Positions 9,001 through 46,353 of a DNA stretch of 54,289 nucleotides are shown here, piece after piece. The DNA is from Candidatus Woesearchaeota archaeon (lineage in GTDB: Archaea; Nanobdellota; Nanobdellia; Woesearchaeales; JAHWIC01), in the NCBI GenBank assembly GCA_019322485.1, contig JAHWIK010000001.1, positions 1-54,289 of the forward strand, in the 5' to 3' direction. The notes under the pieces are model-generated. The model was not told the DNA's origin, searched no databases, and saw only the letters and a program-made list of their open reading frames with translations. Position numbers and translations under genes: made by a program. The stretch's first letter is position 1; every line of letters begins with the position of its first letter.

Positions 9001-12000
9001 AAGGTTATATTGCAGTCTGCACCGCTTATGAATTCATCTTCCTCTCCAGTATACTGGCTTGTGTAATTTGCGTAGAAAAAGAGATAATCTCCTGTGTACT
9101 TTGTCTGCGAGCCTTCTTTTGGGTCTGTATCATCCCAGAGCGAAAGACCTGAATCCTTGCCAAAGATATCAATCCCGCTTGAGTTTAATGTGGTTCCTTC
9201 TGTATAGCCGTCATTTGGGGTGATAGAACATTTCCATAACTCATTAGTTACTGTTTCTTCGTAGGAGATTGAACTTAAACCGCTTTGGTAGAGTTTTTCT
9301 ATCTGAGCCGCAGATAGGCTTCTGTTGAAGATAAGGACTTCGTCTATTGTTCCGTTGAAATAACCACTAGTATCATAATCTCTGCCAATCAATACATCCA
9401 AATCGGTTATGTTAGCATGCGAAGGCAAGGAACCTAATGCAAATGTAGTGGGGGTGTGGTTTTCTCCATTTACCCAGATTTCCATGTGTTCATTTCCTTT
9501 GAATCTTGCTACAGCGTGATACCAAGTATCTTTTTGTAAAGCTTGATTGCTGCAAATCAACCCACCGCTAAAAGGGGTGCCTGATTTGGATATTGTCAGT
9601 TCAAGCCTATCTGTTCCGCAGAATTGAGTATCATCGAATGTGAATTCCCATCCTCTTTTAGCTGCTCCAGCATAGTATTTCTGTACTATTCCTTGCCTCT
9701 GTCTTGTTGTGCCCCCTACCAAACTTCTTAGATTTATCCAAGCAGATATTGTGAATTCTGTGCTTACATCTAAGCTATCGTCATCACTTATATTGATATA
9801 AGTTGAATTTCCATCAAACTCATAAGCACCAAAGCCGTCATAACCACCAGTTGAGTTCCAGGTTGAACCATTGACAAACCCATCATTACCATAGCCAGAA
9901 TAATCGATTGCAAAGTCATCTGCATCATGCGTTGCATTGCCCCAGCCCTCAAACGGCATGTTAAGTATTGTTAGCGACTTATCATCAACATACCAGTCGA
10001 TTATTGGCTTGACTGAATCTTCATCTGCATCAGCAGAATTATTTAATGAACAGCCAATGTCATTATCTAGGTAAGCATAGTCTCCTTTGCTTGATTCGTA
10101 TAGTTTTTCAATTTCTGTTGCTGATAAGGAACGGTTCCAGATTATGACTTCATCAATTGTGCCGTTCCAGAAATATGTTTCAGGCGTACCATCTAGGTCA
10201 GCATCATATGCTCCTATCCCTAAGACAATACTTGTTGTAGGAATTCCAGAAGTTTTTGCCTCACCATAAGTATTTGTTCCATTTACGTATATTCTACCAT
10301 AGCCACTAGAATCAAATGTGTATGCAACATGATACCACTTATCATTTTGAGTTATTGAGCCAGTTGACTCAATTACATCTTTATGCCAGACAATTCCCTT
10401 TATTTGTCCAGTAGAAAGAACATCGATTCCATAAGCTCCTGCCTTTGTTGCGATTATTTGCTCCCCAGAAGAATAGTTCTTGGGTTTAATCCAAGCAGCG
10501 ATAGTTAATTCATCGCTTATATCTAAGGGATTGCTATCGGCAATCTTAATATAATCATCAACACCATCAAACTCATAAGCCTGTCCAACACGGCCTTCAT
10601 ATGTGTGGTTGGCGCCACTTACAGTTCCATTATTAACCTCAGTCTCATCGTAAGTCCAAGTAGAATTCCCATATTCAAAGCGCCATTCGCCAACTAAGCC
10701 TGAATCAATCCTGTTGTGCGCTCCAATGTAAGGTGTGGAATGTGTTGGGTCTGTGTTTAGTGTGATGTTATCGCTTGCAGTTTGGCTTTCATAGCTGTCA
10801 TGCTCGCAGCTAACATTCCAGTAATGGGTGCCTGACTCTGAGAAGGTTCTTTCATGTTTGTAAAGTTGCTGGAGTTTGAGGATATACGTATCGCTTGACA
10901 TAGTACCAACTATGACCTTTTCTTTGGAATCTAATGCAACTGAATAACCAAAATAACTTTCTTCAGTTGGGCCAGTCCAATTATACTCTCCTAACTTATT
11001 GCCATCAGAATCAAGCTTCTCCACATGCAGGTCATAATAAATCCTACCTGTAATATCTTGGCCCTCTCCTGAAATAATAATATTATCATTAGAATCAATT
11101 GCAACTGAACGGGCTGAATCATGATCTTGAGTTATGTCACTCCAATTATACCCCCATAACTTATTGCCATCAGAATCAAGTTTTTCTACATGCCAATAAT
11201 ATATGTTACCTGTAGTTCTTCCTCTTCCTACAACAACAATATCATCATTAGAATCCACTGCGACACCATAGGCAATGTCAACGGCAGAACCTGGACTGCT
11301 CCAATTATACCCCCATACCTTACCGCCGCTAGAATTCAACTTCTCCACATGCCAATCAGAAAAACTCTTCTGTCCTGCAACAATAATATCATCATTGGAA
11401 TCAACTGCAACTGAACGAGCATCATCAGTTACACTGCCAGAGCTAGTCCAGTTATACCCCCATAGTTTACTTCCACTAGAATTCAACTTCTCCACATGCC
11501 AGTCATAACCTGAAATAGACATAACCCCTGCAACAATAATATCATCATTGGAATCAACTGCAACTGAATAAGCCACATCAGCAGCTGAGCCACTCCAATT
11601 ATACTCCCAGATTTCGTCACCACTACTATTTAATTTTTTCACATGCCAATCATAGTTTGAACTTCCACTTATGAGGTCATTTCCATATCCTGCAACAATA
11701 ATATCATCATTAGAATCCACTGCAACCCCAACAGCACCTTCTGGGTCTGAATTATTCCATACAAACTCCCACTGCTTTGTACCATTTGAGTAAAGTTTCT
11801 CCACATGCCAATCATAGACAACACCAGCCACATATTGATAATCCCCTGCGAGGATAATCTCATCATTAGAGTCCACTGCAACCGACCTGGCAACATATTC
11901 ATAGATGCTTGGGTCACTTAGATTATAACTCCACAACAAGTGATAACCTTCAGGCATATTATAACTTCCATCACTGAAGTCAATAGTGCAACTTCCGTTG

Positions 12001-15000
12001 CTTATAGGCAGTCCAACCTCACCAGTATATGCATTTGAGTAATTGGCATAGAACATTACATCATCCCCTAATCTTTTGCCTTGTGAACCGCCTTGCGGGT
12101 CATTATCATCCCAGACTGAAAGAGACGAGTCCTTGATGGTATTGGTTTCGCTTGAGTTTAATGCAGTTCCTTCTGTATAGCCGTCAGTTGGGGTGATAGA
12201 ACACTTCCATTCTTCACTATATACTGTTTCGTTGTGAGAGATTGAGCTTAAGCCAGACTGGTAGAGTTTTCTGACTTGGTTTGCGTTTAAGCTTCTATTG
12301 AAGATAAGGACTTCGTCGATTGTTCCGTCGAAATACCTGTTATTAAAATCCAACCCGAACCTAACATCTGCATTAGCACCTATAGTTCCTGATATAGTGC
12401 CTGTTGAGCCAGCAGCATCTAATTCTCCATTAATCCAGGTTTTTGGTGCTTCTCCACTCTTCCAGGTTCCAACGACATGGTACCACGCCCCCGTGCCTAG
12501 TGAGTTACCTGATGAATAGCCATATTTATATGTAGAACCGTTGCCAATATAGAACTCGAGCCTATTATTCGCACCATTACCAGAAAAAAAGACCGCATCA
12601 TTAGTACCACTTCTGGACTCTATTATTGGGTCGGCTATATCAAAATCATCAATATTTATCCATGCTGAAACAGTTGTTTCATCCATGCCATAAAATAAGG
12701 CTTCGCTTATTGTGATATAATCATCACCACCATCAAACTCATAAGCACCCCAGCCATCATAGCCGCCAGTTCTGTTAAAGGTTGCATTTATTACCCTTCC
12801 ACTCTTGTTGTGGGGAGAATAATCCCTTGTCCACCCTATGCCTGCTGAGTTGTTCCATTCAAACGGCATATTCAAGATAGTTAATGATTCACCATCTTTG
12901 TACCAGTTGATTATTGGCTTGACTGAATCACCATCTGCGTCAGCTGAATTATTTAGTGAGCAGCCAATATCACTATCTAGGTAAGCATAATCTCCTTTGC
13001 TTGATTCGTATAGTTTTTCAATTTCTGTTGCTGATAAGGAACGGTTCCAGATGGTTACTTCGTCTATTGTGCCGTTGAAATGATTTGGTATCCCTGCGGA
13101 TGGATAATTTCCGATAGTTACATACCCCGTAGTTGTACCTCCAAATGTAGAGGCATCTTCGAAAAACTCACCATTAACATATAAGCTTGCTTTGGAAGTT
13201 GTGGTATCAAAAACAGCTACAAGGTGAGTCCAATCTGTTGTTATGCTATATGAGGAGTCCCAATAGTTTGCTCCAGTCATCAAAGCAGCTTTCCCATTCT
13301 CTAAAAGTAAGGTCCAATCATAACCTCCGTTATCTGGGCATATAATCCATTGTTTGACAGATGGGCTCTCTGTTTTAACCCACGCACTATAAGTTAATGC
13401 AGATGGTGTAGTGAAAGTAAGGCTAGTTTGTACCCTCTCAGTGCTACTATCAAACCAATAACCCTTACCAACCCTGCCTTCATCAGTATGTGTTGCACCA
13501 GTAACAGTTCCATTATTCCTTCCGGTTTCATCATAAGTCCAGGTAGAATTGCCCCATTCGAAGCGCCATTCGCCAACTAAGCCTGAATCAAGCCGGTTAT
13601 GCGCGCCAATGTAAGGTATTGAATGTGTTGGTGCATTAGTTTCATCATTGTATGCATAACCAACATCACTGCCAAACCTAAACTCTAAAGTAACATGCCC
13701 TTCTTTTAGTTTCAGGCTTGATTCATAGCCAGTTTCATTGCAGGAATAATCTTCAACAAACACAGAACTGTTTCCAGAGCTTCTGTTAATCCAGGTATAA
13801 TTAACTAGAGCATCACCGCACCTAAGCTCAATGAAATTGTAGTTGTAATCTGTTCCATTGTAACCAGCAATATCTGTCCAGGTTGCACCATTAATTGGTG
13901 TTATTGTCAGATTAGCTGTTCCAGTTGTGTTAAACATAACAGTCCAGTTGTCGCCAACCTCAGGATAGCTGATGATATTGAGTATATCTATCTCAGTACC
14001 AAATCCTGAGAAGTGCTCAGCAGTAAAGGTTAATCTGCCATTAACAGGGTCATAGCTTATGTCATGGCATATATCACATTCCTTGCCATTAGCAATAATC
14101 TCCTCCCTTGAGCTGTAGAATCCATCTGCGTAATAGATTTTAGGAATTCCTGAGTACCATACATTCTCTAGGGTTATTGTAACAGAATGATTAAAGCTTT
14201 TATCTAAAGCAGATGAATTTGCAGAAACAAATCCAAAGCCAAGCTTTACATTTGTGTTGTAATCTTCTCTGCTTGTATTCACACCATACTCTTCACCAAA
14301 CTCAATCTTTCCATCACTAGTTGCAAGAGTTAGATTTGTGACATTCTCAAAGTCGCTTATTATCCTAAAGTCAGTGCTTCCTTCAGCTCTGTCAAATTCA
14401 GCAGCAAAAGGAACACCTCTTTCATATGTTTCGCTGTAAGCTACTATGCCAGAGTCCAAACTGAATGCATAATCCTCGCCAGGTGTTATATTCAAGGCTT
14501 CTTCCCAACCACCAGAGCATTCCTGCGAATTAGCATCCCAGCCATCGCATCTGTAAAGTTTATCACCTTTTGCAGTTACATTTACAGCTGCATCTGTAAA
14601 GTTTACCTTGGATGAATCTATTGCATATAGCTCAAACAGCTCTCCTGTTTCATTCAGGTCATCTATGTTAATCAGGTCTGTTGTGTTGGAATAAAGCTCT
14701 ACATCCTTGATGACTATTCCCCTAACAGGATGGTTCTTGAGCCTGATGTTTATATCATAGATTCCTTCTTTTATCTTTATGTAATCCTGCTCAGGCTTTA
14801 AATAAGAGGTATCAAGTATGCTGTCAATAAGCTCTACCACAGCATCCTCAAGCTTTTTGAGCTTTGATGTTTTTACATGCGCAGAGAAGATAATCTCTTT
14901 AGGAATGCCAAACTCGTAAACCTCCAAAGCTTCTTTTTTGCCAATAAGAAGCCAGAATGAGGACTTATCCCAATCAAGAATAGTTAGTCTAACTCGTTCA

Positions 15001-16844
15001 TCTGCTGATGATTCTTTTTTGAGGATATCATACTTAACCTTTCCTTTAACATCAATCTTTAATGTTTCATCAGCATTATGGTGGAAAACAACAACTAAAT
15101 CATTGCCATCCTCATACAATTCATCAATGAAAACATCATAGCCTGGGTTATCCCTGAGCTTCTTATAGCTTACATTCGCACTTATGTTTATCTCAACAAG
15201 AGGCATCAGCCTTGTTATTGTGTAATCAAGGTCATCAACATAGATTGTTGAATCACCTATTAATTCAAATCTTAGCCTATAGGAACTTGCATTAAGGCCG
15301 GCTAATACGCAGGTTTCAATGCAGATATCTGAGAAGTCAATGAATTCAATAAATTTAGCATCAAGGCTTAATGTATCTGAATAGTAAATCTCTGAGTATG
15401 GAACCTCTAAGTCATAATCAGCATAGATTACCTGCGCTGTAACAATATTGCTGAGAGTAGCGCCAAACCTTCCATAGCTTAAATCCAAAGGAGCATCCCA
15501 CCCAGCCTGGAATGGAGCAACTCCAACCAAAGCGCAGCAATCAGCACTGCCTTGGCAAACAACAGTTATCTCTGAGTTCTCTTCAGAATAGATTTCCCAT
15601 TTTGTGCAGAGCTTAGAGTAATCCGCATCAAACCCAAATGTTGTATCTTTTACAGTAAAGTCAATTGCTCTTCTTATGTCTTCAATACCATCATCATCAG
15701 CATCAAAGGTTGTGCCAGGATTATATTTTAAATTAATATTTATTTCTTCTAGTGTTTCATTTACTGGTTCTGTAATGGTTTCATTCACAGATGTTTCATT
15801 TATTTGTTCTGTTTCATTTATTGGTGTTGTTTCGTTTAATGTTTGATTTACTGTTTCATTTATTATTGAATTGTTTTCTATTGATTGATTTGTTGTTTCA
15901 TTGATTATTTCTTCAGTTGTTTCATTCAAAACAACATAGCCAGTAATCGCGGGAGGCTCTTCTATCAGCTCAGAACTGTCAAATATTAAGTATTCAGAGC
16001 CTTCATACTCAAGGTAAACTTTAGCACTGCCGCTTACCTTTCCATCCAGCCTAAGAGATCTTAGCTCACCTGGATATGACATATACCACAAGTATGAAGT
16101 AGAGTTAGCTGCTTTGAAATCAATGTGCTCTGTGTAGTTTATTTCCTCACCTGCAGTAATCCTTCCTACAATTGTAGGCCCTGTTATAAAGACATTTGTC
16201 AGCACTAATGCAATCATCAAAACAAACAGCCAGATTGATATGTTTTTTGTTAGCTGATTGCTTTGTATAGGTTTAACCTTTTCAGGCTTCTTTCTAGCAG
16301 CAGGCTTTTCAATAATTTTATGGATATCAAAAACTTCCTTGCGCCATTCCTTAGCTATCTCCCAATCAATATGCGCAACAAGACTGACATAGGTATCTCT
16401 TAGTTTTGGATATACAACTGCTAGTTTTTGTGAGCCAGCAGCTGACCTTGCCTGAGCTAAGAGCTTATTGAACTGAGATACTTTATGGCTGGTAGACCTG
16501 GGTGCATAATAGCCATAAGCTATAATCATTACAGCAAGAACTGCAATCACAAGCAGGAGTGCTGCTGGTGCAAGCAGTTTTGGCAGGCTAAGCCCCAGTG
16601 ATGCAAAGCCAACAATTGAGGTTTCTGTAAACACAAACACAAAAACCAGAACCAGCAGTATTGCTCCAAGGTACAAGCTGCGGTTAGTAATCTCTTCAAG
16701 CTCATAAGACCTAATCAATCTTTCAGTAGTTTCTACATCATGGCCATAAGCAATAAGGGCTTTCTTAATAGAGCTGATACTATAACCTCTTTCTAAACTG
16801 TTCCTTATGTACTTCTTCAGCCCTTTTTCCTGTTGTTTATCCAT
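1..16844 (-). CDS. Giant cell-surface protein, 3'-truncated by the window edge (at least 5614 aa). Order from N- to C-terminus: cytoplasmic N-module, TM helix, NET-sequon linker, Cys-containing region, LamG_3-type modules interleaved with two SBBP beta-propeller arrays, a long parallel beta-helix, then further LamG_3 modules.
   Basis: ATG at 16844-16842 (minus). The six-frame track lists no minus ORF of 60 aa or more in this frame between 1 and 16844, which fits one stop-free frame leaving the window. Three spot translations all fall in the frame p mod 3 = 2. At 13079 down: FNGTIDEVTIWNRSLSATEI. At 8411 down: ADYAYSVAVDSDDNIIVAGFGGNLSEDS. At 6221 down: TQNNTITNNTVNDNQYGIYLYQAHNNTVTSN. N-terminus translated: MDKQQEKGLKKYIRNSLERGYSISSIKKALIAYGHD...LYLGAILLVLVFVFVF (TM). 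The DEV-I-NRSLS-EI-LY motif is confirmed nine times, at about 13050, 12300, 10130, 9330, 3465, 2710, 1870, 1065 and 460. Confidence 0.85.
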   Translation of the reverse strand, partial: MDKQQEKGLKKYIRNSLERGYSISSIKKALIAYGHDVETTERLIRSYELEEITNRSLYLGAILLVLVFVFVFTETSIVGFASLGLSLPKLLAPAALLLVIAVLAVMIIAYGYYAPRSTSHKVSQFNKLLAQARSAAGSQKLAVVYPKLRDTYVSLVAHIDWEIAKEWRKEVFDIHKIIEKPAARKKPEKVKPIQSNQLTKNISIWLFVLMIALVLTNVFITGPTIVGRITAGEEINYTEHIDFKAANSTSYLWYMSYPGELRSLRLDGKVSGSAKVYLEYEGSEYLIFDSSELIEEPPAITGYVVLNETTEEIINETTNQSIENNSIINETVNQTLNETTPINETEQINETSVNETITEPVNETLEEININLKYNPGTTFDADDDGIEDIRRAIDFTVKDTTFGFDADYSKLCTKWEIYSEENSEITVVCQGSADCCALVGVAPFQAGWDAPLDLSYGRFGATLSNIVTAQVIYADYDLEVPYSEIYYSDTLSLDAKFIEFIDFSDICIETCVLAGLNASSYRLRFELIGDSTIYVDDLDYTITRLMPLVEINISANVSYKKLRDNPGYDVFIDELYEDGNDLVVVFHHNADETLKIDVKGKVKYDILKKESSADERVRLTILDWDKSSFWLLIGKKEALEVYEFGIPKEIIFSAHVKTSKLKKLEDAVVELIDSILDTSYLKPEQDYIKIKEGIYDINIRLKNHPVRGIVIKDVELYSNTTDLINIDDLNETGELFELYAIDSSKVNFTDAAVNVTAKGDKLYRCDGWDANSQECSGGWEEALNITPGEDYAFSLDSGIVAYSETYERGVPFAAEFDRAEGSTDFRIISDFENVTNLTLATSDGKIEFGEEYGVNTSREDYNTNVKLGFGFVSANSSALDKSFNHSVTITLENVWYSGIPKIYYADGFYSSREEIIANGKECDICHDISYDPVNGRLTFTAEHFSGFGTEIDILNIISYPEVGDNWTVMFNTTGTANLTITPINGATWTDIAGYNGTDYNYNFIELRCGDALVNYTWINRSSGNSSVFVEDYSCNETGYESSLKLKEGHVTLEFRFGSDVGYAYNDETNAPTHSIPYIGAHNRLDSGLVGEWRFEWGNSTWTYDETGRNNGTVTGATHTDEGRVGKGYWFDSSTERVQTSLTFTTPSALTYSAWVKTESPSVKQWIICPDNGGYDWTLLLENGKAALMTGANYWDSSYSITTDWTHLVAVFDTTTSKASLYVNGEFFEDASTFGGTTTGYVTIGNYPSAGIPNHFNGTIDEVTIWNRSLSATEIEKLYESSKGDYAYLDSDIGCSLNNSADADGDSVKPIINWYKDGESLTILNMPFEWNNSAGIGWTRDYSPHNKSGRVINATFNRTGGYDGWGAYEFDGGDDYITISEALFYGMDETTVSAWINIDDFDIADPIIESRSGTNDAVFFSGNGANNRLEFYIGNGSTYKYGYSSGNSLGTGAWYHVVGTWKSGEAPKTWINGELDAAGSTGTISGTIGANADVRFGLDFNNRYFDGTIDEVLIFNRSLNANQVRKLYQSGLSSISHNETVYSEEWKCSITPTDGYTEGTALNSSETNTIKDSSLSVWDDNDPQGGSQGKRLGDDVMFYANYSNAYTGEVGLPISNGSCTIDFSDGSYNMPEGYHLLWSYNLSDPSIYEYVARSVAVDSNDEIILAGDYQYVAGVVYDWHVEKLYSNGTKQWEFVWNNSDPEGAVGVAVDSNDDIIVAGYGNDLISGSSNYDWHVKKLNSSGDEIWEYNWSGSAADVAYSVAVDSNDDIIVAGVMSISGYDWHVEKLNSSGSKLWGYNWTSSGSVTDDARSVAVDSNDDIIVAGQKSFSDWHVEKLNSSGGKVWGYNWSSPGSAVDIAYGVAVDSNDDIVVVGRGRTTGNIYYWHVEKLDSDGNKLWGYNWSDITQDHDSARSVAIDSNDNIIISGEGQDITGRIYYDLHVEKLDSDGNKLGEYNWTGPTEESYFGYSVALDSKEKVIVGTMSSDTYILKLQQLYKHERTFSESGTHYWNVSCEHDSYESQTASDNITLNTDPTHSTPYIGAHNRIDSGLVGEWRFEYGNSTWTYDETEVNNGTVSGANHTYEGRVGQAYEFDGVDDYIKIADSNPLDISDELTIAAWIKPKNYSSGEQIIATKAGAYGIDVLSTGQIKGIVWHKDVIESTGSITQNDKWYHVAYTFDSSGYGRIYVNGTNTYGEAKTSGIPTTSIVLGIGAYDADLDGTPETYFWNGTIDEVIIWNRSLSATEIEKLYESSKGDYAYLDNDIGCSLNNSADADEDSVKPIIDWYVDDKSLTILNMPFEGWGNATHDADDFAIDYSGYGNDGFVNGSTWNSTGGYDGFGAYEFDGNSTYINISDDDSLDVSTEFTISAWINLRSLVGGTTRQRQGIVQKYYAGAAKRGWEFTFDDTQFCGTDRLELTISKSGTPFSGGLICSNQALQKDTWYHAVARFKGNEHMEIWVNGENHTPTTFALGSLPSHANITDLDVLIGRDYDTSGYFNGTIDEVLIFNRSLSAAQIEKLYQSGLSSISYEETVTNELWKCSITPNDGYTEGTTLNSSGIDIFGKDSGLSLWDDTDPKEGSQTKYTGDYLFFYANYTSQYTGEEDEFISGADCNITFSDGTYSMDEWNKFIWMYNWTGPAGVAGVGVCRAIDVDSSDNMVIGGYGYNLIGSSSYDWHVEKLNSSGDKLWEYNWTASSVDYVYGVAFDSSGNVIAAGSGWQLMGSTSTDWHVEKLNSSGSKLWGYNWTGPAGASGTDYVYSVAVDSDDNIIVAGTGVNLTGDDSADWHVEKLNSSGSLLWDYNWTGPGAGAFGGADYAYSVAVDSDDNIIVAGFGGNLSEDSYRDWHVEKLNSSGSKLWEFNWTGPVFGPLAWGADYAYSVAVDSDDNIIVAGYGTNLTGDSTSDLHVKKLNSSGSQVWEYNWTGPSTDVPQGVDVDSSGDIIVAGYGLNLTGDDSDDWYVQKLNSSGSLVWEYNWTSPGDTGTQEYAYAVAVDSDDNPIVVGFGTNLSGSDTYYDWQVEKLNKNLYQTYAYERTFSDPGTQEWNVTCSHDDYEAQTSSDDAQIEVGDCGATITGDTTLGKNLSQTGSGTCITIGADDITLDCAGHNITGDQSSTSYGIDNNGKDNVTVKNCNVNNFTQGIYWRGGANDGLLINNTAYDNVETGIYLLSSNNNNLTSNTVTFNTQDGILVRQGSNHNILTNNTANNNSRYGIYVWSSSNTTLTSNTANNNTDYGIYIYFQADNNTLTSNTANDNKRGIYVYLGSNNILTSNNANNNTNYGILLSQVSKYNYLASNTANGNYYGIYAGAESNNNTITLNNASNSGYAGILLSSSHNNTVTFNNANKNNRDGFSIYSNSNYNTFTSNNANNNTQQGFYFSSSSNNVLTNNTARNNTQNGFYLTTNAKNNNFTSNAANDNADYGIYLQSNCNYNTITNNTVNGNERGFYIVSSSNNTFTHNTVNNNTWYGFYFATSADSNLISNNTINYNYYGIYGNPIRYSNITNNTVIDNTNYGIRISSTNARYNLVSGNTVNDNQYGIYIYGSTTQNNTITNNTVNDNQYGIYLYQAHNNTVTSNVVKGSSLRGFWIREAKYNTFTSNTANNSPTGRGMYFSNNAHYNTLTSNNANNNQYGIYLDTASNNTITSNTANNNSQTGIYLSSNTPGNHIINNSASYGGTGIYISSSPSNVVANNTARNNTNYGIGTGTSAHYTNYTGNTLIYNREGIYTYSWGNIFHLNNVSFNTEEGFYLGGYDNIITNNTFIYNTDYGVQLYGGGRTIIANNTIQFSSIGLGLSQGTQNNSVSYNEITKNLDEGITLSNSNRNNITNNNISENAANGRGINGYGDLNLIKENTINSQYDGIYLYSTSDNNTIIFNDISYNGLNGITITSGSYANISSNTLISDRNGINSASNCNGFTIHGNNITGNSLNHGISLFGSKDNTVTSNYVEGKSHGIDFNAVFNSTFRYNTISNNSYGIYIQYGGYNNIISNNVSNSTERGAHVFQSIKSNFTSNSFNNNTNYGMYFSSSSVNNTINDNIISYNGNTGIYVWAGCEYNIFTNNTFENNDDYGIRFVGSEDSTVYNNKFDTNGINAWENANNTWNATYNCSIGPNIVGGSCIGGNWWSDYLGSDTDGDFVGDTLLPYNASGNLLIGDWLPLTSEVLSIWDDTDAEAGSNVVFTGDDVKFYANFTDAANDSISGANCIANFADSTGNSMSYSSGTYEYTRSFSSGGTYSWNVTCSKSGYINKTKTDTINISSTPTHYNPYIGGHNKYESDRLYEFRFEWGNSTWVYADYIEPDGDVENYTVYGATHTDGGRVGKAYEFDGVDDYMSTNQDPDYPGRTSITIAAWVNHNALSGTADVIFDEGVRAKLMINSSYVSGWIEDSMAYQLSAEAPASNVVSGEWTHIAFTWESGQQGAIFINGVNLTTGGNAITNTLGVSIGALPRIGSSGSHYFNGTIDELIVWNRSLSASEISDLYDSSRGDYAYDEQDIGCGGNDLYDGDGDPIKAVYNWYKDDTSITVLNMPFEAWRGNSTHDNDNWTEDYSGYSNDGTVTGAVFNGSAGHDGKGAYEFDGIDDYIETSENITITGSQDRTISLWAKTSSGNNQRPLGWGAGPSGNRSDYDVIFESGTTIFIGIDGGNRKFSFSYNDSKWHHYVFSQDGPNTTNINCYVDGVSLAESSINNQVVNTTSTPSRIGRGYDFTGYFNGSIDEVLIFNRTLNTNEIRNLYRFGLSSLSHNETNKHERWSCALTPNDGIIGGTTLFSNDLVLNQEPTHSIPYIGAHNDITDGLVGEWRFEWGNSSWTYDETGVNNGTVSSATKTYAGRVGQAYEFDGGDDWINVGTSPLYGAGAIEMSVSAWIYADPGNFDGDTQLFIDTSTGDPQPYDGFYIGVDDRNIGPAPINGIQFSIGTTDGGGYELLYSDDNVIPSKGWYHVVGTYGGDSGKIYVNGVESSNVYVDETGDFDPANANMYIGATNGGTYDFNGTIDEVVIWNRSLSATEIADLYNSSRGAYEVYTSNDLGCSINNSDDNDDDSVKTIINWYVDDKSITVLNMPFESLNSKHTDINNSDMVGAWYMEGNADDRTVYGNDGTVYGGPPPYLTDGKVGQGYEFENGSIHIGEDIFELDTLTVSLWVKMNEVDKTQSFIANTETGTTGWHISVISTNNIVFSFRDSSTFQSSQTGTGFAEKDKWYHLVGVAGNGEIKLYVNGEVASTTDTYDGTGLYSSTEDLIIGAKTQDAGYPQVPPELQANATIDEVIIWNRSLSATEIQALYEEGLDSEEEAKDYSGYENWGSVQGATYDETGGHDGFGAYEFDGVDDRIETADFSWTTSESFTMATWINPASTSNVGSILAKRAQEQSYSLNTDDGNDLYFYYTDYGVQLISLSDSNRLTAGNWYFVTVTYDGSVARMYTDGNLVATDSDVSGTFSPGGENLYVGYGGYDPEDSEVNAYFNGTIDEVLIFNRSLNSNEVKKLYQNGLSSLSSNETITHESWKCSVTPNDGYTDGETYNSSETTLTNSPPTTPSVRSPANDSFYTINSVNVSCSGSTDVDGDALAYYLWGGTSPSSMTYLGNDSYTWTTTDGTTYYWVCAAYDEEDFSSNTSIWQFSENFDPTQ
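4500..7500 (-). repeat. Region of ~66-nt periodic repeats encoding a right-handed parallel beta-helix (PbH1 / NosD-like coils, roughly 40-45 turns) within the giant protein.
   Basis: Translation gives a reiterated NNTITNNTVNDNxYGIYLxxSxNNTxTSN pattern. The out-of-frame 166-aa T/Q/M-rich ORF at 6539..7039 is a shadow of this periodicity. Confidence 0.7.
7800..9000 (-). repeat. SBBP-type beta-propeller repeat array 2 (about eight units, several nearly identical at the DNA level) inside the giant gene.
   Basis: Units beginning ccagttatactcccacaa at about 7939, 8085, 8259, 8438, 8606, 8773 and 8945. Long identical stretches, for example atcagaatcaacagctactgaataggcatagtctgctcc near 8197 and 8375. 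Translation: DWHVEKLNSSGSKLWEFNWTGP...ADYAYSVAVDSDDNIIVAG. Confidence 0.75.
10880..11950 (-). repeat. SBBP-type beta-propeller repeat array 1 (about seven units of ~150-170 nt) inside the giant gene.
   Basis: Recurrent DNA units of the form ccaattatacccccata...gaattcaacttctccacatgcca. The protein units read like WHVEKLNSSGxxLWxYNW...YxVAVDSNDDIIVAG. Confidence 0.7.
15735..15930 (-). repeat. Low-complexity stretch of GTTTCATT-like units on the plus strand, encoding Asn-Glu-Thr and Asn-x-Ser/Thr sequon repeats of the giant protein (NETTEEIINETTNQSIENNSIINETVNQTLNETTPINETEQINETSVNETITEPVNETLEE).
   Basis: Direct reading of the repeated tttcatt units and their translation in the giant ORF frame. 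Confidence 0.8.
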
Positions 16845-17292
16845 GCTTGCCTCTTTTAAACTTGGCCCTATGGTAGACTGTCCAGATGTTACGTTCATCT
16901 CGGTTGAGTAGAATGCCTATCTCATGGAAGCTGAGCTTTTTATGGTCCTTAAGCCATTCAACAATGGCTTCAAAACCACTCAAGCTTCTGTCCTTTAGGA
17001 CAGAGATAGGCACACTCAACCGGGGTTTTGGAGCAGAAATTCTCTTAGTAATCTCGCGCTTCTTCCTTACTCTTGAATAAATGGTCCAGATATTGCGCTC
17101 ATCGCGATTAAGAATTAAACCAATCTGGCGGTAGTTGAGTCCTTTTTCTTCTTTCAAATACTCTACAACAGCTTCAAGAATTGCAAGATTAGTATCAAAG
17201 AAAACAGTATTTGGCAGAAGGAGAGCAGTATGATTAGAAGCTTTTTTAATAACATCACTCTTTTTAAGTTCTCCAAAACCCCTTTTAATCAA
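16837..17292 (-). CDS. Small DNA-binding protein with two tandem HTH-like repeats (sigma-70 region 4-like). Its 3' end overlaps the giant gene start by 8 nt.
   Basis: 151 aa. Internal duplication: LEAVVEYLKEEKGLNYRQIGLILNRDERNIWTIYSRVRKK and FEAIVEWLKDHKKLSFHEIGILLNRDERNIWTVYHRAKFK. Stop at 16839-16837, while the giant gene ATG sits at 16844-16842. Confidence 0.55.
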   Translation of the reverse strand: MIKRGFGELKKSDVIKKASNHTALLLPNTVFFDTNLAILEAVVEYLKEEKGLNYRQIGLILNRDERNIWTIYSRVRKKREITKRISAPKPRLSVPISVLKDRSLSGFEAIVEWLKDHKKLSFHEIGILLNRDERNIWTVYHRAKFKRGKHG

Positions 17293-18275: not shown

Positions 18276-18449
18276 ATGCAGAAGGATTTGGTTATAAAGA
18301 TAATATCTATTTTCTTGATTTTTGTAGTAATCCTGAATTTGACCTTATTTGTTTTGAAGCAGATAAAGCCGGGCTTATTCTGGGCTGTAATCATAATTGC
18401 AGCTTTGATTGCTTATAAGGGAATACCAAAGCTGAAATCAATAAAATAA
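18276..18449 (+). CDS. Hypothetical 57-aa two-helix membrane peptide.
   Basis: The ATG follows the previous stop directly. Translation MQKDLVIKIISIFLIFVVILNLTLFVLKQIKPGLFWAVIIIAALIAYKGIPKLKSIK. It falls below the 60-aa cutoff of the ORF track. Confidence 0.3.
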   Translation: MQKDLVIKIISIFLIFVVILNLTLFVLKQIKPGLFWAVIIIAALIAYKGIPKLKSIK

Positions 18450-18679
18450 TCAATTTAAAAAATCAATAATTAAAAATAAATCTGATTTTTGCCTTATTCC
18501 CTTCTTTAAAGCAAAAATCATCTTATGCTGTTTCTTAAGAACCATAAGCAGATGAAAATTTAGTAAACGCAACAATTTTATGAAAAATTGCGTTTACTAT
18601 TTAGTAAGCGAAACAATTGATGATGATAATTTCGCTTACTATAACCTTTATAGCAGTTCTGAAGGGAATTTTCAGATTT
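18448..18679 (+). repeat. Copy A of a conserved three-hairpin intergenic element. It carries a ~100-nt insertion that itself consists of two related hairpins.
   Basis: Shares AATCAAT...AAAATAAATCTGATTTTTGCC-loop-GCAAAAATCATC, then a CATC...GATG hairpin, then GAAAATT...AAGGGAATTTTCAGATTT with the copies at 22977 and 46192. Inserted hairpins: tagtaaacgcaa/ttgcgtttacta and agtaagcgaaa/tttcgcttact. Confidence 0.6.
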
Positions 18680-22460: not shown

Positions 22461-22480
22461 AGTTTGGGGGGGCAATTAGA

Positions 22481-22978
22481 ATGTTTGTAAACAGATATGA
22501 AAATATCTTTGATATAAAGTTTAACTGGAGAACAGCAAGCCTGCTTTGCTTTTTGGCTGTGTTCCCGAATGTGCTTGGAGCCTTGCACACAACTGTGTGG
22601 GGCGTTAGGATACACTTCTTCCAATACCTTATATTCTTAGCTGCTATAATATACGGCCCTGTTGGAGGGGCAGTATCAGGAGCTTTTGGCTCTGTTTACA
22701 CAGCAATGGCTCTGCATAACCCTTACATTATTGTGGGGAATGTCATTCTTGGAGCAACAGTTGGCTTACTCATTAAGAGATTTAATTTTCACGTGATTTC
22801 TGCTGTTTTGACAGCTTATCTTATACAAATGCCTTGGTTATGGCTAACAGATATCTATTTAGCAGGGATGCCTATGAAGGTTGTGAACAGCATTGTTGTT
22901 GCTTTGCTGGTTAGCGATTTGCTGTGGGGCTCTGTTGCTTTGTTTACTTGGAAGAAGATTAGGGCTATTGTGTCTTAA
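22481..22978 (+). CDS. Membrane protein, possibly an ECF-transporter S-component-like substrate-binding subunit.
   Basis: 165 aa, five or six TM helices, Gly-rich helices. Family assignment is tentative. Confidence 0.35.
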   Translation: MFVNRYENIFDIKFNWRTASLLCFLAVFPNVLGALHTTVWGVRIHFFQYLIFLAAIIYGPVGGAVSGAFGSVYTAMALHNPYIIVGNVILGATVGLLIKRFNFHVISAVLTAYLIQMPWLWLTDIYLAGMPMKVVNSIVVALLVSDLLWGSVALFTWKKIRAIVS

Positions 22979-23125
22979 TCAATAAAAAACTTCATTAGAA
23001 ACAAAAAATAAATATGATTTTTGCCTTAAGTCTACTATAAAGCAAAAATCGTCTACAGTGTTTCTAAAGAACCAAACTAAGATGAAAATTCCTTTACAGA
23101 GGTTGTGAAAGGAATTTTCAGATTT
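22977..23125 (+). repeat. Copy B of the conserved three-hairpin intergenic element.
   Basis: aaataaatatGATTTTTGCC-(17-nt loop)-GCAAAAATCgtc ... GATGAAAATTCCTTTacagaggttgtgAAAGGAATTTTCagattt. It ends 18 nt before the ATG at 23144. Confidence 0.65.
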
Positions 23126-23143
23126 AATTGATATTTTTCAAAA

Positions 23144-23527
23144 ATGAAAAAGCTCACTAAGAAACAAATTACGGATAAGGTAAAAAAAATAGATTTCCCA
23201 AACTTTGACTTAATCATAGCTATAAACCGGGGCGGCTTAAATCCAGCTAAAATCCTGGCTAAACACCTCAAACTGAAAATCAAAACAATCCATATCAATT
23301 ACAGGGATGAAACTCATGCTCCAAAATACAAGAATCCAAAACTGATTAAAACAATAAAAATCAAAAACAAAAAAATATTATTGGTTGATGATGTTTCCAG
23401 AACAGGAAAGACATTAAGAACTGCAAAAAAACTATTAAAAGAAAATAAGGTAAAAACATTTGTTATTAACGGAAAAGCAGATTATTCCTTGTACAACTGC
23501 AAAGAGTGCTTTAAGTTTCCTTGGTAA
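23144..23527 (+). CDS. Small phosphoribosyltransferase-domain protein.
   Basis: PRPP-binding motif KILLVDDVSRTGKTL. Only 127 aa. Confidence 0.55.
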   Translation: MKKLTKKQITDKVKKIDFPNFDLIIAINRGGLNPAKILAKHLKLKIKTIHINYRDETHAPKYKNPKLIKTIKIKNKKILLVDDVSRTGKTLRTAKKLLKENKVKTFVINGKADYSLYNCKECFKFPW

Positions 23528-24850
23528 CTACTTAAAATACTCACTATGCAAAGCCTGTACTGCTTTGTCTGCTTCATCATCATCTACTATAAAGCTGACA
23601 TTGATTTCTGAAGCGCCCTGCGATATCATCTCAACATTAACCTTTGCTTTGCCTAGGGTTGTGAATATCTTTCCAGCTATTCCAGGAATATGATACATGC
23701 CCTCTCCAACAACACAGACAATTGCTTTGCCTTTCTCTACCTTGACATCAGCAATCTCCTTTAGCTGCTCTGCAATCTGGTCCATGCTTTCTTCCTTATC
23801 AACAGTTAGAGATATGCTTGCTTCTGAGGTTGCTATCATGTCAATGCTTTTTGCGTAGTCTTCAAAGATGTCAAATACTCTGGCCAAAAATCCATGCGCG
23901 CCAATCATCCTTGTGGAGACTATACTAACTAGCAGGACGCTCTTCTTGCAGGCTATTGCCTTTATGACTTCTTTGGATTTCTCAGATTTGCGCACAATCA
24001 CAGTTCCTTTATGTGTAGGCTCGTATGTATTGAGAACCCTAACAGGAATATCCTTCTTCATTGCAGGTATGATTGTTTTTGGATGCAGAACCTTGGCACC
24101 AAAGTAAGCAAGCTCTGAGGCTTCTGCAAAGCTAATCTGAGGTATTGTTTTTGCTTCCTTTATAACTCTGGGGTCAGATGTCATGACACCATTAACATCA
24201 GTCCATATCTGTATCTCTTCGGAACCTACAGCTGCGCCTATTATTGCTGCTGTATAATCAGAGCCTCCCCTGCCTAGGGTAGCTACAGTACCTTCTGGTG
24301 TTTTCCCGATAAATCCAGTTACTATCGGCACTAGATCAAGCTTTTTGACATGGTCATCTATCTTTTTGTAGGAATCATTTAAAGGCTCTGCCTTTCCAAA
24401 GTTAGCGTTTGTTATCATGCCAATATCCCATGCATCAAAGGCCTGAGCTTTAACACCGATGCTATTCAGGTGTGCTGCAACGAGCTTAGAAGACATACGC
24501 TCTCCAAAGGACTGAACAAGGTCCATGGCCTGGGTAGAGGCTTCGCTTGCCTCTTCAATATCCTCTATAACCTGCCTGAATTCATCAAGATTTTTCTTAA
24601 CAATGTCTTTATCAAGATTTAGGTCTGCTATAATCTGGTCATGCTTATCACCGATTTCCTTGAGCAGGTTTGAGGTGTTTTCTCCGTCAACTGCAGCATT
24701 AGCTGTTTCAATTAATTTGTCAGTTATACCTTTGACTGCAGAGACAACTACAACAGGCTTTTTATCCAGCCTTGACTTTACAATATTAGCTACATCTTTG
24801 ATTTTTTCTGCATTTGCTACAGAGCTTCCGCCGAACTTCATTACAATCAT
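23528..24850 (-). CDS. lysC: Aspartate kinase (aspartokinase) with tandem ACT domains.
   Basis: MIVMKFGGSSVANAEKI N-terminus, amino-acid-kinase fold motifs and a C-terminal ACT pair. 440 aa. Confidence 0.9.
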   Translation of the reverse strand: MIVMKFGGSSVANAEKIKDVANIVKSRLDKKPVVVVSAVKGITDKLIETANAAVDGENTSNLLKEIGDKHDQIIADLNLDKDIVKKNLDEFRQVIEDIEEASEASTQAMDLVQSFGERMSSKLVAAHLNSIGVKAQAFDAWDIGMITNANFGKAEPLNDSYKKIDDHVKKLDLVPIVTGFIGKTPEGTVATLGRGGSDYTAAIIGAAVGSEEIQIWTDVNGVMTSDPRVIKEAKTIPQISFAEASELAYFGAKVLHPKTIIPAMKKDIPVRVLNTYEPTHKGTVIVRKSEKSKEVIKAIACKKSVLLVSIVSTRMIGAHGFLARVFDIFEDYAKSIDMIATSEASISLTVDKEESMDQIAEQLKEIADVKVEKGKAIVCVVGEGMYHIPGIAGKIFTTLGKAKVNVEMISQGASEINVSFIVDDDEADKAVQALHSEYFK

Positions 24851-35190: not shown

Positions 35191-35268
35191 AGTGTATTGT
35201 AATGGATTATACTATATAAATGTTGATGTTGTAGCAAGGGATACGACAAGTGAAATATAAGAAAAAAA

Positions 35269-35390
35269 TGGGCTCAAAGGGACTTTCGTGCCGTATTGCT
35301 GTGCAATTAACGGCGTTCGAACCCTCGACCTATCGCTTTCTTCCTTATGGGTAAGAGGCGATCGCTCTAACCAGGCTGAGCTATGAGCCC
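35269..35390 (-). tRNA. tRNA-Lys(CUU) with two predicted introns: a 14-nt intron at canonical position 37/38 and a ~33-nt intron in the T-loop (59/60). No encoded CCA. Followed by a T7 tract.
   Basis: Reverse complement reads GGGCTCA TA GCTC AGCCTGGTTA GAGC G ATCGC CTCTTA[CCCATAAGGAAGAA]A GCGAT AGGTC GAGGG TTCGAA[CGCCGTTAATTGCACAGCAATACGGCACGAAAG]T CCCTT TGAGCCC A. All four stems pair. U33 is present. The T-loop is TTCGAAT after intron removal. The second intron forms the hairpin GCCGT...ACGGC. Confidence 0.75.
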
Positions 35391-35412
35391 ATACCTTCTA
35401 AGAATTAATAAT

Positions 35413-35425
35413 CACTTTAAAAAAC
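35413..35425 (-). promoter_or_regulatory. TATA-box-like element (TTTAAA) about 27 nt upstream of the tRNA 5' end.
   Basis: The minus strand reads ttttttaaagtgattattaattcttagaaggtat followed by GGGCTC. Confidence 0.4.
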
Positions 35426-35437
35426 TTTTCAAAAGAA

Positions 35438-35782
35438 TCAAACCATCTTCAGTTTTCCGGTAACTTTGTCAATCTCTTTCTCTTCATCTGGGCCTATCCC
35501 TAAGCAGGTTACTGTTCCTGGCTCTACAACTGTTTTCCCAGCGTCTTCTACAACTGCTGTTACAAGGCCGGCATCATCTGCTTCCTGCTTGTATTTGAAC
35601 AACTCATCTACATCTTTTACCTTTAGAACAATCTTCTTCATCCCAGCATCTTTCCAGTCAGCAATAAGCGCTTTGCTGCTTTTCAATAAAGCACCAACAG
35701 AAGCATGGCTAACCTGGGCTGCAAGCTTTCCTTTTGGAAGCTTTAGGTCCTGCCTGACTAATATAACCTGTTTTAATGCCAT
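35438..35782 (-). CDS. pth2: Peptidyl-tRNA hydrolase, PTH2 (archaeal/eukaryotic type).
   Basis: MALKQVILVRQDLKLPKGKLAAQVSHASVGA, typical PTH2. 114 aa. Confidence 0.85.
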   Translation of the reverse strand: MALKQVILVRQDLKLPKGKLAAQVSHASVGALLKSSKALIADWKDAGMKKIVLKVKDVDELFKYKQEADDAGLVTAVVEDAGKTVVEPGTVTCLGIGPDEEKEIDKVTGKLKMV

Positions 35783-46191: not shown

Positions 46192-46353
46192 AATCAATAT
46201 CAATGAAGTCAATTTAAAAAAATCAATAACGAAAATAAATAAATCTGATTTTTGCTTTATTTCTTACTTAAGGCAAAAATCATCCGCAGTCATGAAGTAA
46301 AGTAAGCGGATGAAAATTCCTTTAACTCGGTTGTGAAAGGAATTTTCAGATTG
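46192..46353 (+). repeat. Copy C of the conserved three-hairpin intergenic element.
   Basis: aaataaatctGATTTTTGCT...GGCAAAAATCatc, CATCCGC...GCGGATG, GAAAATTCCTTTaactcggttgtgAAAGGAATTTTCagattg. It ends 37 nt before the ATG at 46390. Confidence 0.65.

What the first reader, a model, noticed from the sequence alone, without database searches (positions are those of the whole stretch)
18448..18679. Three-copy conserved intergenic element with three hairpins and compensatory substitutions (candidate structured RNA family or miniature repeat element)
Copies at 18448, 22977 and 46192 are all on the plus strand, and each lies immediately upstream of a plus-strand gene. They share a 5' AATCAAT/AAAATAAAT box and a 9-bp stem GATTTTTGC/GCAAAAATC with variable loops. 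A middle stem is preserved by covariation: CAUCUUAUG/CAUAAG..GAUG in A, UCGUCU/AGAUGA with a G-U pair in B, CAUCCGC/GCGGAUG in C. A 12-bp stem GAAAATTCCTTT/AAAGGAATTTTC has a conserved GGTTGTG loop. Copy A carries a ~100-nt insertion that is itself a tandem of two hairpins preserved by compensatory changes (AGTAAACGCAA/TTGCGTTTACT versus AGTAAGCGAAA/TTTCGCTTACT). Stems conserved while loops drift argues for selection on structure. The candidates are a cis-regulatory leader, a small RNA, or a MITE-like element.
Basis: seen in the sequence. Interest (0 to 1): 0.7.

Follow-up and report, generated by a model that had tools for sequence, protein, structure and literature searches.

The report
Dispersed hairpin repeat of a Woesearchaeon
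The three look-alike intergenic stretches are real, but they are copies of a small non-coding repeat present about 75 or more times in the genome of an uncultivated DPANN archaeon (Woesearchaeota), so this is a miniature mobile or mosaic element and not a gene-specific regulatory RNA.

Summary
Three plus-strand copies (A 18435-18679, B 22977-23125, C 46192-46353) share an A-rich box region and three hairpins. Copy A carries an 84-nt two-hairpin insert inside the third stem.

The window is archaeal and syntenic (76-82% nt identity) with Woesearchaeota MAG Yap2000.bin4.8. That MAG holds 64 exact-pattern copies, about 75 by covariance model. All are intergenic, lie in both orientations, and occur in co-directional, divergent and convergent spacers in background proportions. 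Downstream genes are unrelated, and 25 of 65 are on the other strand.

The element is pseudo-palindromic with ends of about 15 nt that resemble terminal inverted repeats (TIRs). Its core folds as a perfect four-way junction. Stems 1 and 3 are nearly invariant in sequence, while the loops and stem 2 are almost all unique and reshuffled between copies.

Related genomes show presence/absence and module-replacement differences at orthologous sites. Pairing does matter: there is a compensated stem-1 subfamily and a Y-R covariation in stem 2. But G·T and C·A mismatches are equally common, so nothing points to one transcribed strand. Rfam has no match.

Verdict: a MITE/REP-BIME/BOX-like mosaic repeat. 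No transposase and no fixed target-site duplication (TSD) were found. Interest is moderate to low.

The parts
18435..18483 (+). Copy A: A-rich 'ATCAAT' box region ending in the left end AAATCT. It overlaps the last codons and the stop codon of the upstream 58-aa ORF.
   Evidence: The boxes are confined to the elements in this window.
18484..18519 (+). Copy A stem-loop 1 (GATTTTTGC...GCAAAAATC).
18520..18553 (+). Copy A stem-loop 2, the variable middle hairpin (ATCTTATG.../...CATAAGCAGAT).
18554..18673 (+). Copy A stem-loop 3. The left arm GAAAATT|CCTTT is split by the insert. The right arm is AAGGGAATTTTC.
18561..18644 (+). 84-nt nested insert (INS): two tandem hairpins, TAGTAAACGCAA/TTGCGTTTACTA and TAGTAAGCGAAA/TTTCGCTTACTA. 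It is found only at this exact position of stem 3, in 11 family members.
18674..18679 (+). Copy A right end AGATTT, the inverted counterpart of AAATCT.
22977..23015 (+). Copy B: A-rich box region plus left end (AAATAT). It starts at the stop codon of ORF 22481-22978.
23016..23125 (+). Copy B core: stem-loop 1 (23016-23050), stem-loop 2 (23051-23083), stem-loop 3 (23084-23119), right end AGATTT. The ATG of the next gene is at 23144.
   Evidence: (111 bits).
46192..46246 (+). Copy C: A-rich box region (TCAATTTAAAAAAATCAATAACGAAAATAAATAAATCT).
46247..46353 (+). Copy C core: stem-loop 1 (46247-46281), stem-loop 2 (46282-46311), stem-loop 3 (46312-46347), right end AGATTG. The predicted fold is a perfect four-way junction.
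   Evidence: -38 kcal/mol, z = -6.9; 121.5 bits.

Best explanation
The three stretches are members of a dispersed, non-coding, hairpin-forming intergenic repeat family of Woesearchaeota (DPANN archaea). In kind, it is a miniature non-autonomous element comparable to MITEs, REP/BIME and pneumococcal BOX elements.

Anatomy. A copy consists of:
- 2-5 A-rich 'ATCAAT' boxes;
- a 105-120-nt core whose ends (AAATCYGATTTTTGC versus AAATCYGAAAATTCC on the other strand) are imperfect inverted repeats;
- three hairpins that, with the ends, form a four-way junction.
Optional hairpin modules are inserted at fixed points at the foot or in the loop of stem 3.

Shown:
- high copy number;
- strictly intergenic position with no preference for spacer type or gene function;
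- presence/absence and module replacement between related genomes;
- mosaic reshuffling of the variable segments;
- maintenance of base pairing in stems 1 and 2.

Inferred:
- Copies arise and are reshuffled at the DNA level.
- One route would be mobilisation in trans by an as yet unidentified enzyme that recognises the invariant hairpins. A hairpin-specific single-strand transposase of the IS200/IS605-RAYT type is the most natural candidate.
- The other route is ectopic recombination or gene conversion between copies.
- Any effect on neighbouring genes (TATA-like box, T-tracts, hairpins in read-through transcripts) is a by-product or a secondary domestication.
For: Copy number and spread:
- 57 loci with about 64 exact matches, all but two in one MAG.
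- About 75 distinct copies by covariance model in 450 kb of that MAG.
- The same element occurs in about 12 further sediment contigs from other relatives.

Position:
- 70 copies, none inside a gene.
- 39 in co-directional spacers (26 in the genes' orientation, 13 against), 13 divergent, 9 convergent.
- The background for all spacers is 69/15/16%.

Ends:
- Flank profiles give a TIR-like AAAWWAAATCYGA on both sides.
- The reverse strand matches the model at 44-63 bits.

Turnover between related genomes:
- MAG copy L023:7794-7933 has no counterpart in window 35385-35440.
- Copy B and its two flanking genes are absent from the MAG.
- L098 and L056 have reciprocal filled and empty sites.
- At the orthologous sites of copies A and C the variable modules differ completely.
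- Contig L089 joins the left flank and left part of the core of L021 (99.8% identity) to a right flank of L035 type.

Mosaicism: there are 53 distinct versions of loop 1, 62 of stem 2 and 52 of loop 3 among 63 copies, in shuffled combinations. Stems 1 and 3 are invariant.

Pairing:
- Stem 1 has a compensated subfamily GAGTTTTGC/GCAAAACTC: 6 copies versus 76 canonical.
- A stem-2 pair covaries with Fisher p = 1e-4.

Nested, site-specific modules:
- INS is always at GAAAATT|CCTTT.
- A GC-richer module sits in the stem-3 loop.
- Truncated copies break exactly at the stem 2/stem 3 junction.

No Rfam family matches.

Literature: a MITE census names 'a Woesearchaea genome' (105 MITEs/Mb) among the most MITE-dense archaeal genomes (PMC11602168).
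Against: - No transposase or other multi-copy protein was found in the window or in 450 kb of loci.
- No target-site duplication of fixed length was found. There is only a weak excess of flanking direct repeats (permutation p about 0.015) and one perfect 15-nt pair.
- Very few decayed copies exist: about 3 of 75. The stems are sequence-invariant across species whose coding DNA is only 70-82% identical. This could mean each copy is under host selection.
- Copies A and C are retained upstream of the same genes in two species.
- A TATA-like TTTAAAAA begins 32-34 nt before the first G of stem 1 in 25 of the 59 copies in which a TATA-like motif was found.
- There is a mild orientation bias, 26 versus 13 in co-directional spacers.
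Confidence: 0.62

Rival explanations
1. A multi-copy family of independently transcribed small RNAs. The A-rich boxes would be BRE/TATA promoters that start transcription at or just before stem 1. The three-hairpin RNA would end at the T-tract after stem 3. The hypervariable loops would carry copy-specific information (guide- or decoy-like).
For: - TATA-like TTTAAAAA lies at a modal 32-34 nt before the stem-1 G, preceded by ATCAAT, which resembles a BRE (my reading).
- 32 of 62 copies have a run of five or more T within 40 nt downstream. One relative ends in T14.
- Invariant stems combine with nearly unique loops.
- Folds are strongly stable.
Against: - No strand asymmetry in mismatches: T.G 10 versus C.A 9 in stem 2, and 16 C.A in the closing helix.
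- Both strands fold about equally well.
- A conserved T5 lies in the first 10 nt of the putative RNA.
- There is no Rfam match.
- Loops 1 and 3 show no complementarity beyond chance.
- Box distance is bimodal, and 13 of 72 copies lack the motif.
- No expression data are available.
Confidence: 0.15
2. A host-recruited punctuation element. It would act as a bidirectional transcription terminator or insulator, or as an mRNA-end-stabilising hairpin cluster between genes. This is not exclusive with a mobile origin.
For: - The design is symmetric. From either side a transcript meets A-rich boxes, then hairpins containing T5/T4 runs, then (on exit) the T-rich complement of the boxes.
- Many copies begin right at the stop codon of the upstream gene: copies A and B in the window, and distances of 14-60 nt.
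- In copy B only 19 nt separate the core from the next ATG, so read-through transcription of the element is almost unavoidable.
Against: - 13 copies lie between divergent genes, where nothing needs terminating.
- The spacer-type distribution equals the background.
- Archaeal termination needs only oligo-T, not a 110-nt four-way junction (general knowledge).
- Orthologous spacers do without the element.
Confidence: 0.15
3. A cis-regulatory leader or riboswitch controlling the gene downstream.
For: - In the window all three copies precede a + strand gene.
- Copies A and C precede the same genes in the related MAG.
Against: - 25 of 65 downstream genes are on the other strand, and 9 copies lie between convergent genes.
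- Downstream genes are functionally unrelated.
- Many downstream genes have their own TATA box between the element and the ATG.
- There is no conserved unpaired core. The unpaired parts are the most variable.
- No Rfam family matches.
Confidence: 0.03
4. Clustered double-stranded DNA binding sites (inverted repeats plus phased A-tracts) for a chromatin or regulatory protein.
For: - Half-sites are sequence-invariant.
- A-tract boxes occur at a period of about 11-13 bp.
Against: - The spacing between the half-sites varies (14-24 bp for stem 1, 12-20 for stem 3), which changes helical phase.
- The compensated GAG/CTC change in stem 1 argues for base pairing rather than recognition of two identical half-sites.
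Confidence: 0.05

Closest known systems
MITEs (miniature inverted-repeat transposable elements) of bacteria and archaea, such as the Sulfolobus SM elements. A 2024 census reports 105 MITEs/Mb in 'a Woesearchaea genome' (PMC11602168).
   Same: It is small and non-coding, present in tens of copies, and strictly intergenic. It has inverted-repeat ends and strong secondary structure, and related genomes differ by insertion.
   Different: No fixed-length target-site duplication and no parent IS with matching ends were found. The body is a modular three-hairpin junction with hypervariable segments, not a deleted transposon.
REP / BIME / REPIN elements with their RAYT transposases (gamma-proteobacteria, Pseudomonas). 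Sources: PMC2817692, PMC3116915, PMC3733652.
   Same: Both are highly repeated extragenic palindromes with invariant stems. They are assembled into mosaics with other short motifs in both orientations. Other small elements insert into them. Pairing is maintained by compensatory change.
   Different: REPs are 20-40 nt with a GTAG or CGTC tag at the foot of the hairpin. No such tag is present here and the unit is 3-5 times larger. No RAYT-like gene was seen. REP/RAYT systems have been described in bacteria, as far as I know.
BOX elements of Streptococcus pneumoniae (boxA-boxB(n)-boxC) and Correia/NEMIS elements of Neisseria. From my own knowledge.
   Same: They share a modular build from a small set of hairpin modules and number about 100 copies. 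They lie next to genes, where they can supply promoters, terminators or processing sites.
   Different: There is no sequence relationship. The hosts here are archaeal, the core is a four-way junction, and the nested inserts sit at exact junction positions.
PATEs, the non-autonomous derivatives of IS200/IS605 (known from haloarchaea and cyanobacteria). From my own knowledge.
   Same: They have subterminal hairpins at both ends, no obvious target duplication, and site-specific insertion at the foot of a hairpin. The 84-nt INS module looks most like this.
   Different: No conserved tetra- or pentanucleotide target next to the left end could be defined. No TnpA or TnpB gene was found in the sampled DNA.

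Membership tests
MITE | Short (<~600 bp) and non-coding. | tested here: met
   Box region plus core is about 150-250 nt. The only reading frame is an 8-codon ORF broken by stop codons in other copies.
MITE | Many dispersed copies in one genome. | tested here: met
   About 64 exact-pattern matches on 31 contigs of one MAG. About 75 copies by covariance model.
MITE | Terminal inverted repeats. | tested here: met
   Left AAAWWAAATCYGA(TTTTTGC) versus the complement of the right end, AAAWTTAAATCTGA(AAATTCC). The reverse strand scores 44-63 bits on the model. The repeats are imperfect.
MITE | Target-site duplication of fixed length. | tested here: inconclusive
   The filled/empty pair L098/L056 shows a perfect 15-nt flanking direct repeat. 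Family-wide there is only a weak excess (p about 0.015) and no common length. The AT-rich flanks hide short duplications.
MITE | A parent autonomous element or transposase with the same ends. | not testable with these tools
   None was found in the window or in 450 kb of loci.
MITE | Insertion polymorphism between related genomes. | tested here: met
REP/BIME (REPIN-RAYT) | A 20-40-nt imperfect palindrome with a GTAG/CGTC tag. | tested here: not met
   The stems are GATTTTTGC and GAAAATTCC with no such tag. The unit is about 110 nt.
REP/BIME (REPIN-RAYT) | An associated single-copy RAYT (Y1 HUH transposase). | not testable with these tools
   Not seen in the sampled loci, but these cover only about 30% of the genome.
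Riboswitch / cis-regulatory leader | Fixed position and orientation in the 5' UTR of functionally related genes. | tested here: not met
   The downstream gene is on the same strand in 40 of 65 cases. 9 copies are in convergent and 13 in divergent spacers, and gene functions are unrelated.
Riboswitch / cis-regulatory leader | A conserved unpaired core plus covarying helices, or a match to a curated family. | tested here: not met
   The unpaired parts are the most variable. Rfam has no hit at gathering threshold, and the best E-value is 0.67.
Box C/D or H/ACA guide sRNA | C/D boxes (RUGAUGA...CUGA) flanking 10-12-nt variable guides, or a pseudouridylation pocket plus an ANA box. | tested here: not met
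   GAUGA and CAGA flank stem 3, but the 'guides' between them are invariant and self-complementary. Stems 1 and 3 have no internal pocket. Only chance-level snoRNA hits were found.
Integron attC / gene-cassette array | Sites in one orientation at the 3' end of each cassette, in an array next to an integrase. | tested here: not met
   Copies are scattered over 31 contigs among housekeeping genes, in both orientations.

The most novel reading that the evidence does not exclude
The family may be the substrate of an undescribed archaeal hairpin-specific DNA processing system. This would be a functional counterpart of REPIN-RAYT or IS200/IS605, or of an attC-like folded single-strand recombination. 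Such a system would insert and exchange hairpin modules exactly at the arms of a four-way junction. That would explain four features:
- the sequence-invariant stems;
- the hypervariable loops;
- the nested inserts at fixed positions;
- the truncations at the junction.

Alternatively, the roughly 75 copies are promoter-equipped small RNA genes with copy-specific loops.
Probability: 0.15. Interest if true: 0.7.

Novelty: new member of a known kind. Interest (0 to 1): 0.35.

Why it matters
DPANN archaea have small, streamlined genomes. Even so, about 1% of this one is a single family of structured intergenic repeats that marks sites of gene gain, loss and rearrangement between species.

For annotation, the practical lesson is that these look-alike 'leaders' should be masked as repeats and not called as regulatory RNAs.

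For biology, three points bear on how genomes of uncultivated archaea are reshuffled:
- what mobilises the element is unknown;
- the module insertions are exact to the junction;
- the element may donate promoters or terminators to neighbouring genes.

The family could also serve as a lineage marker for binning. It exposes two probably mis-binned contigs.

Tried and rejected
**RNA family searches**
- Rfam over the window, 16 loci and two close-ups found nothing above chance.

**Specific RNA readings**
- Small ORF: MKIPLQRL* (copy B) and MKIPLTRL* (copy C) overlap stem 3. Rejected because the loop carries stop codons in other copies and copy A reads MKI*.
- Box C/D or K-turn reading of GAUGA...CAGA: rejected because the intervening 'guides' are invariant and pair with each other.
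- H/ACA: rejected because there are no pockets.
- tRNA-like punctuation element: the arms are far too long and the closing helix is weak (16 of 53 C.A at its innermost pair).
- Kissing interaction between loops 1 and 3: permutation test negative, 72 of 300.

**Search for a partner enzyme or carrier**
- Autonomous element with separated left and right ends: none in the loci.
- Multi-copy (transposase-like) proteins: none.
- Viral carriers: none. The 5 IMG/VR hits share only a chance palindrome.

**Source of the window**
- Exact-protein look-ups gave no record.

**Other tests**
- Fixed TSD: not demonstrable.
- Contig L089 as proof of ectopic recombination: kept only as suggestive, because a metagenome assembler can join contigs at repeats. 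However, its stem-3 loop matches neither putative parent.

Full report
**1. The observation**

- All three have GATTTTTGC...GCAAAAATC.
- B and C have GAAAATTCCTTT...AAAGGAATTTTC followed by AGATT. A 36-base pattern built on that stem occurs twice, against 0.00 expected in shuffles.
- Predicted folds are far more stable than shuffled controls, with z from -4.3 to -6.9.
- In copy C the minimum-energy fold is a four-way junction without unpaired junction bases. It consists of a short closing helix (AAUCU/AGAUU), stem 1, stem 2 and stem 3.
- Copy A carries an 84-nt insert (18561-18644). The insert splits the left arm of stem 3 between GAAAATT and CCTTT, so stem 3 is still there.

**2. Whose genome, and how many copies**

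The window is archaeal. It encodes a NOG1-type GTPase, class I LysRS, TFE-alpha, L10e and a DAP-pathway lysine operon.

A scan of one genome per species with a pattern spanning stems 1 and 2 returned 57 loci with about 64 matches.
- 55 of the loci are from one MAG, Candidatus Woesearchaeota archaeon Yap2000.bin4.8 (JAHWIC01), on 31 of its contigs and on both strands.
- The window is syntenic with contig JAHWIC010000009 of that MAG at 76-82% nucleotide identity, so it comes from a related species.

A covariance model built from 53 copies gave these results:
- In the window it finds only the three known copies. The next best hit scores 13 bits.
- In 450 kb of the MAG it finds about 75 distinct copies.

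A metagenome scan found the element in 64 sediment contigs. Most are identical to the MAG, and about a dozen come from other relatives with the same stems. IMG/VR viruses have none. No Rfam family matches.

**3. Anatomy of the family**

*Left side.* Two to five A-rich boxes (…AATCAATTTAAAAAATCAATAGAAA…AATAAATCY) precede the core.

*Core.*
- Stem 1 is GATTTTTGCYTTA / TAARGCAAAAATC.
- Stem 2 is CATCYGC… / …GCRGATG. It comes in a short (~30 nt) form and a long (~45 nt) form with an inner TTCCTTTA/TAAAGGAA hairpin.
- Stem 3 is GAAAATTCCTTT / AAAGGAATTTTC.
- The right end is RGATTT.

*Symmetry.* The two ends are imperfect inverted repeats of about 15 nt. The reverse complement of a copy matches the model at 44-63 bits, so the element is pseudo-palindromic.

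*Right side.* One of the following occurs:
- the inverted, T-rich copy of the boxes;
- a second repeat module (D1), which has a TATA-like stretch, a GCACAACTAATTGTGC hairpin and GTGATAA motifs;
- a third module of two hairpins (D2).

*Optional inserts.*
- The 84-nt INS is in 11 copies, always at the same phosphodiester of stem 3.
- A GC-richer module of about 125 nt sits in the stem-3 loop in L006, L021 and L036.
- Truncated copies end or begin exactly at the stem 2/stem 3 junction.

**4. What varies and what does not**

Among 63 copies there are 53 different versions of loop 1, 62 of stem 2 and 52 of loop 3, combined in shuffled ways. Stems 1 and 3 are almost invariant as sequence.

Part of that invariance is ascertainment, because my patterns demanded it. 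The model search is more tolerant, yet it found very few decayed copies.

It did find one informative variant: six copies carry GAGTTTTGC/GCAAAACTC, a T-A to G-C change compensated on both arms.

In stem 2 one pair covaries: T-A 32, C-G 21, T.G 10, C.A 9, Fisher p = 1e-4.

Over the whole proposed structure the covariation measures exceed column shuffles only modestly. The closing helix has 16 C.A mismatches in 53 copies.

T.G and C.A mismatches are equally frequent, and both strands fold about equally well. Base pairing is therefore selected, but nothing says it is the RNA of one strand that folds.

**5. Position relative to genes**

I used codon-usage-scored gene calls.
- None of 70 copies lies in a gene.
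- Of the 61 copies with a called gene on both sides, 39 are in co-directional spacers (26 in the genes' orientation, 13 against), 13 in divergent spacers and 9 in convergent spacers.
- The background for all spacers in the same loci is 69/15/16%, so the distribution is indistinguishable from it.
- The downstream gene is on the element's strand in 40 of 65 cases.
- Many downstream genes have their own TTTATATA box about 30 nt before the ATG, lying between the element and the gene.

'Upstream of a plus-strand gene' in the window is thus three out of three by luck or by a mild bias, not a rule. The riboswitch/leader reading fails.

**6. Turnover**

Orthologous comparisons show the following:
- Copies A and C sit before the same genes in the MAG (L035, L018), but with entirely different variable segments and different optional modules.
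- Copy B and its two flanking genes are absent from the MAG, where homoserine dehydrogenase and aspartate kinase abut.
- MAG copy L023:7794-7933 has no counterpart in window 35385-35440.
- L098 and L056 are about 80% identical and syntenic, and they have reciprocal filled and empty sites. The L098 copy is flanked by a perfect 15-nt direct repeat.
- Contig L089 is 99.8% identical to the left flank and left core of L021, and then continues as the right flank of L035. This is an ectopic recombinant or an assembly chimera.

Family-wide there is only a weak excess of flanking direct repeats (p about 0.015) and no fixed length.

**7. Interpretation**

The data fit a non-autonomous, hairpin-based repeat that spreads and is reshuffled at the DNA level.

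The features that recall REP/RAYT and IS200/IS605-type single-strand systems are:
- invariant, pairing-dependent stems;
- free loops;
- module insertions at hairpin feet;
- lack of an obvious target duplication.

The inverted-repeat ends recall MITEs, and the Lego-like build recalls BIME and BOX elements.

I could not find the enzyme. There is no multi-copy ORF in the loci and no transposase in the window. The rest of the MAG was out of reach.

Features that keep host-function rivals alive:
- the near absence of decayed copies;
- the retention of A and C across species;
- a TATA-like TTTAAAAA starting 32-34 nt before the stem-1 G in 25 of 59 copies;
- T-tracts after stem 3 in half the copies;
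- the 19-nt gap between copy B and the next ATG, which makes read-through of the element nearly certain.

**8. Novelty**

A 2024 census already lists 'a Woesearchaea genome' with 105 MITEs/Mb among the densest archaeal genomes (PMC11602168). I found no description of this family or its architecture.

It is a new member of a known kind of thing. Its unusual points are the four-way-junction core, the nested site-specific mini-inserts and the unknown mobiliser.

Noticed in passing
window 3-16916 (-): One open reading frame of at least 5,638 codons runs off the left end of the window. It is full of internal repeats with periods of about 69, 159-180 and about 2,200-2,900 nt. It is presumably a giant repetitive surface protein. 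It explains why the first 17 kb shows almost no listed ORFs.
   Followed up: partly
window 35262-35390 (-): A tRNA-like gene was missed by ARAGORN. It scores below threshold in Rfam (21.8 bits against a gathering score of 29). By eye it is a tRNA (anticodon CTT, Lys) with a 16-nt intron in the anticodon loop and a second intron in the T arm.
   Followed up: partly
window 22461-23534: The segment holding ORF 22481-22978 (weak ECF-transporter S-component hits), repeat copy B and the phosphoribosyltransferase gene is absent from the syntenic MAG contig. There, homoserine dehydrogenase and aspartate kinase are only about 38 nt apart.
   Followed up: partly
L002:195-290, L011:6890-6990, L050:4895-4990 and about 30 other places in the MAG loci: This is a second repeat family (D1): TAATTGTTTTAAAGTTTAGATTAAAGTGATAAAAACACAACCAAGTGCACAACTAATTGTG...CCTAGTGATAA. 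It is usually attached to either end of the core, pointing outward. It is often followed by an SD-like GGTGAT and an ATG, but in 8 cases by the end of a convergent gene. Its nature is unknown.
   Followed up: partly
L045:3870-4110, L052:440-680, L016:~6000-6240 (-), L021:2190-2310: This is a GC-richer structured module. It has a hairpin, then CCTCCCC..AGTGCACAAC.., then TGTCCCGCCCCT. It occurs both inside the stem-3 loop of three core copies and on its own just upstream of SD and ATG of genes. It has no Rfam match. The CCTCC stretch could pair with Shine-Dalgarno sequences.
   Followed up: partly
L015:1246-1300, L021:2326-2380, L035:5983-6036, L041, L043, L047: This is a third module (D2), found directly after the right end of six cores. 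It has two hairpins: GTGTATAAATTAT..ATAATTTACTACAC and GAAAAATGCGTCAGCATTTTTC.
   Followed up: no
L034 (CP070655.1, 'Omnitrophota bacterium bin81 chromosome') and L022 (CAYXTQ010000097.1, 'Methanosarcinales archaeon'): Both records carry the Woesearchaeal repeat. L034 also encodes proteins 85-93% identical to proteins of the Woesearchaeota MAG and contains a run of N. These stretches are probably mis-binned or chimeric.
   Followed up: partly
window 18276-18449 (+) versus L035: The 58-aa membrane-protein ORF upstream of copy A takes its last three codons and its stop codon from the first box of the repeat (…KLKSIK* versus …KLKSKK* in the MAG). In the MAG an extra gene of about 960 nt lies between this ORF and the repeat.
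   Followed up: partly
L037:5437-5520, L030:7340-7372, L039:1667-1740, L021:2015-2090, L026, L047, L054: Box segments are bracketed by direct repeats of the core ends: AAGGAATTTTCRGATT on the right and AAATCYGATTTTTGCC on the left. It looks as if boxes and core ends were duplicated together. The left 'solo end' forms a mini-hairpin GATTTTtgccccAAAATC.
   Followed up: no
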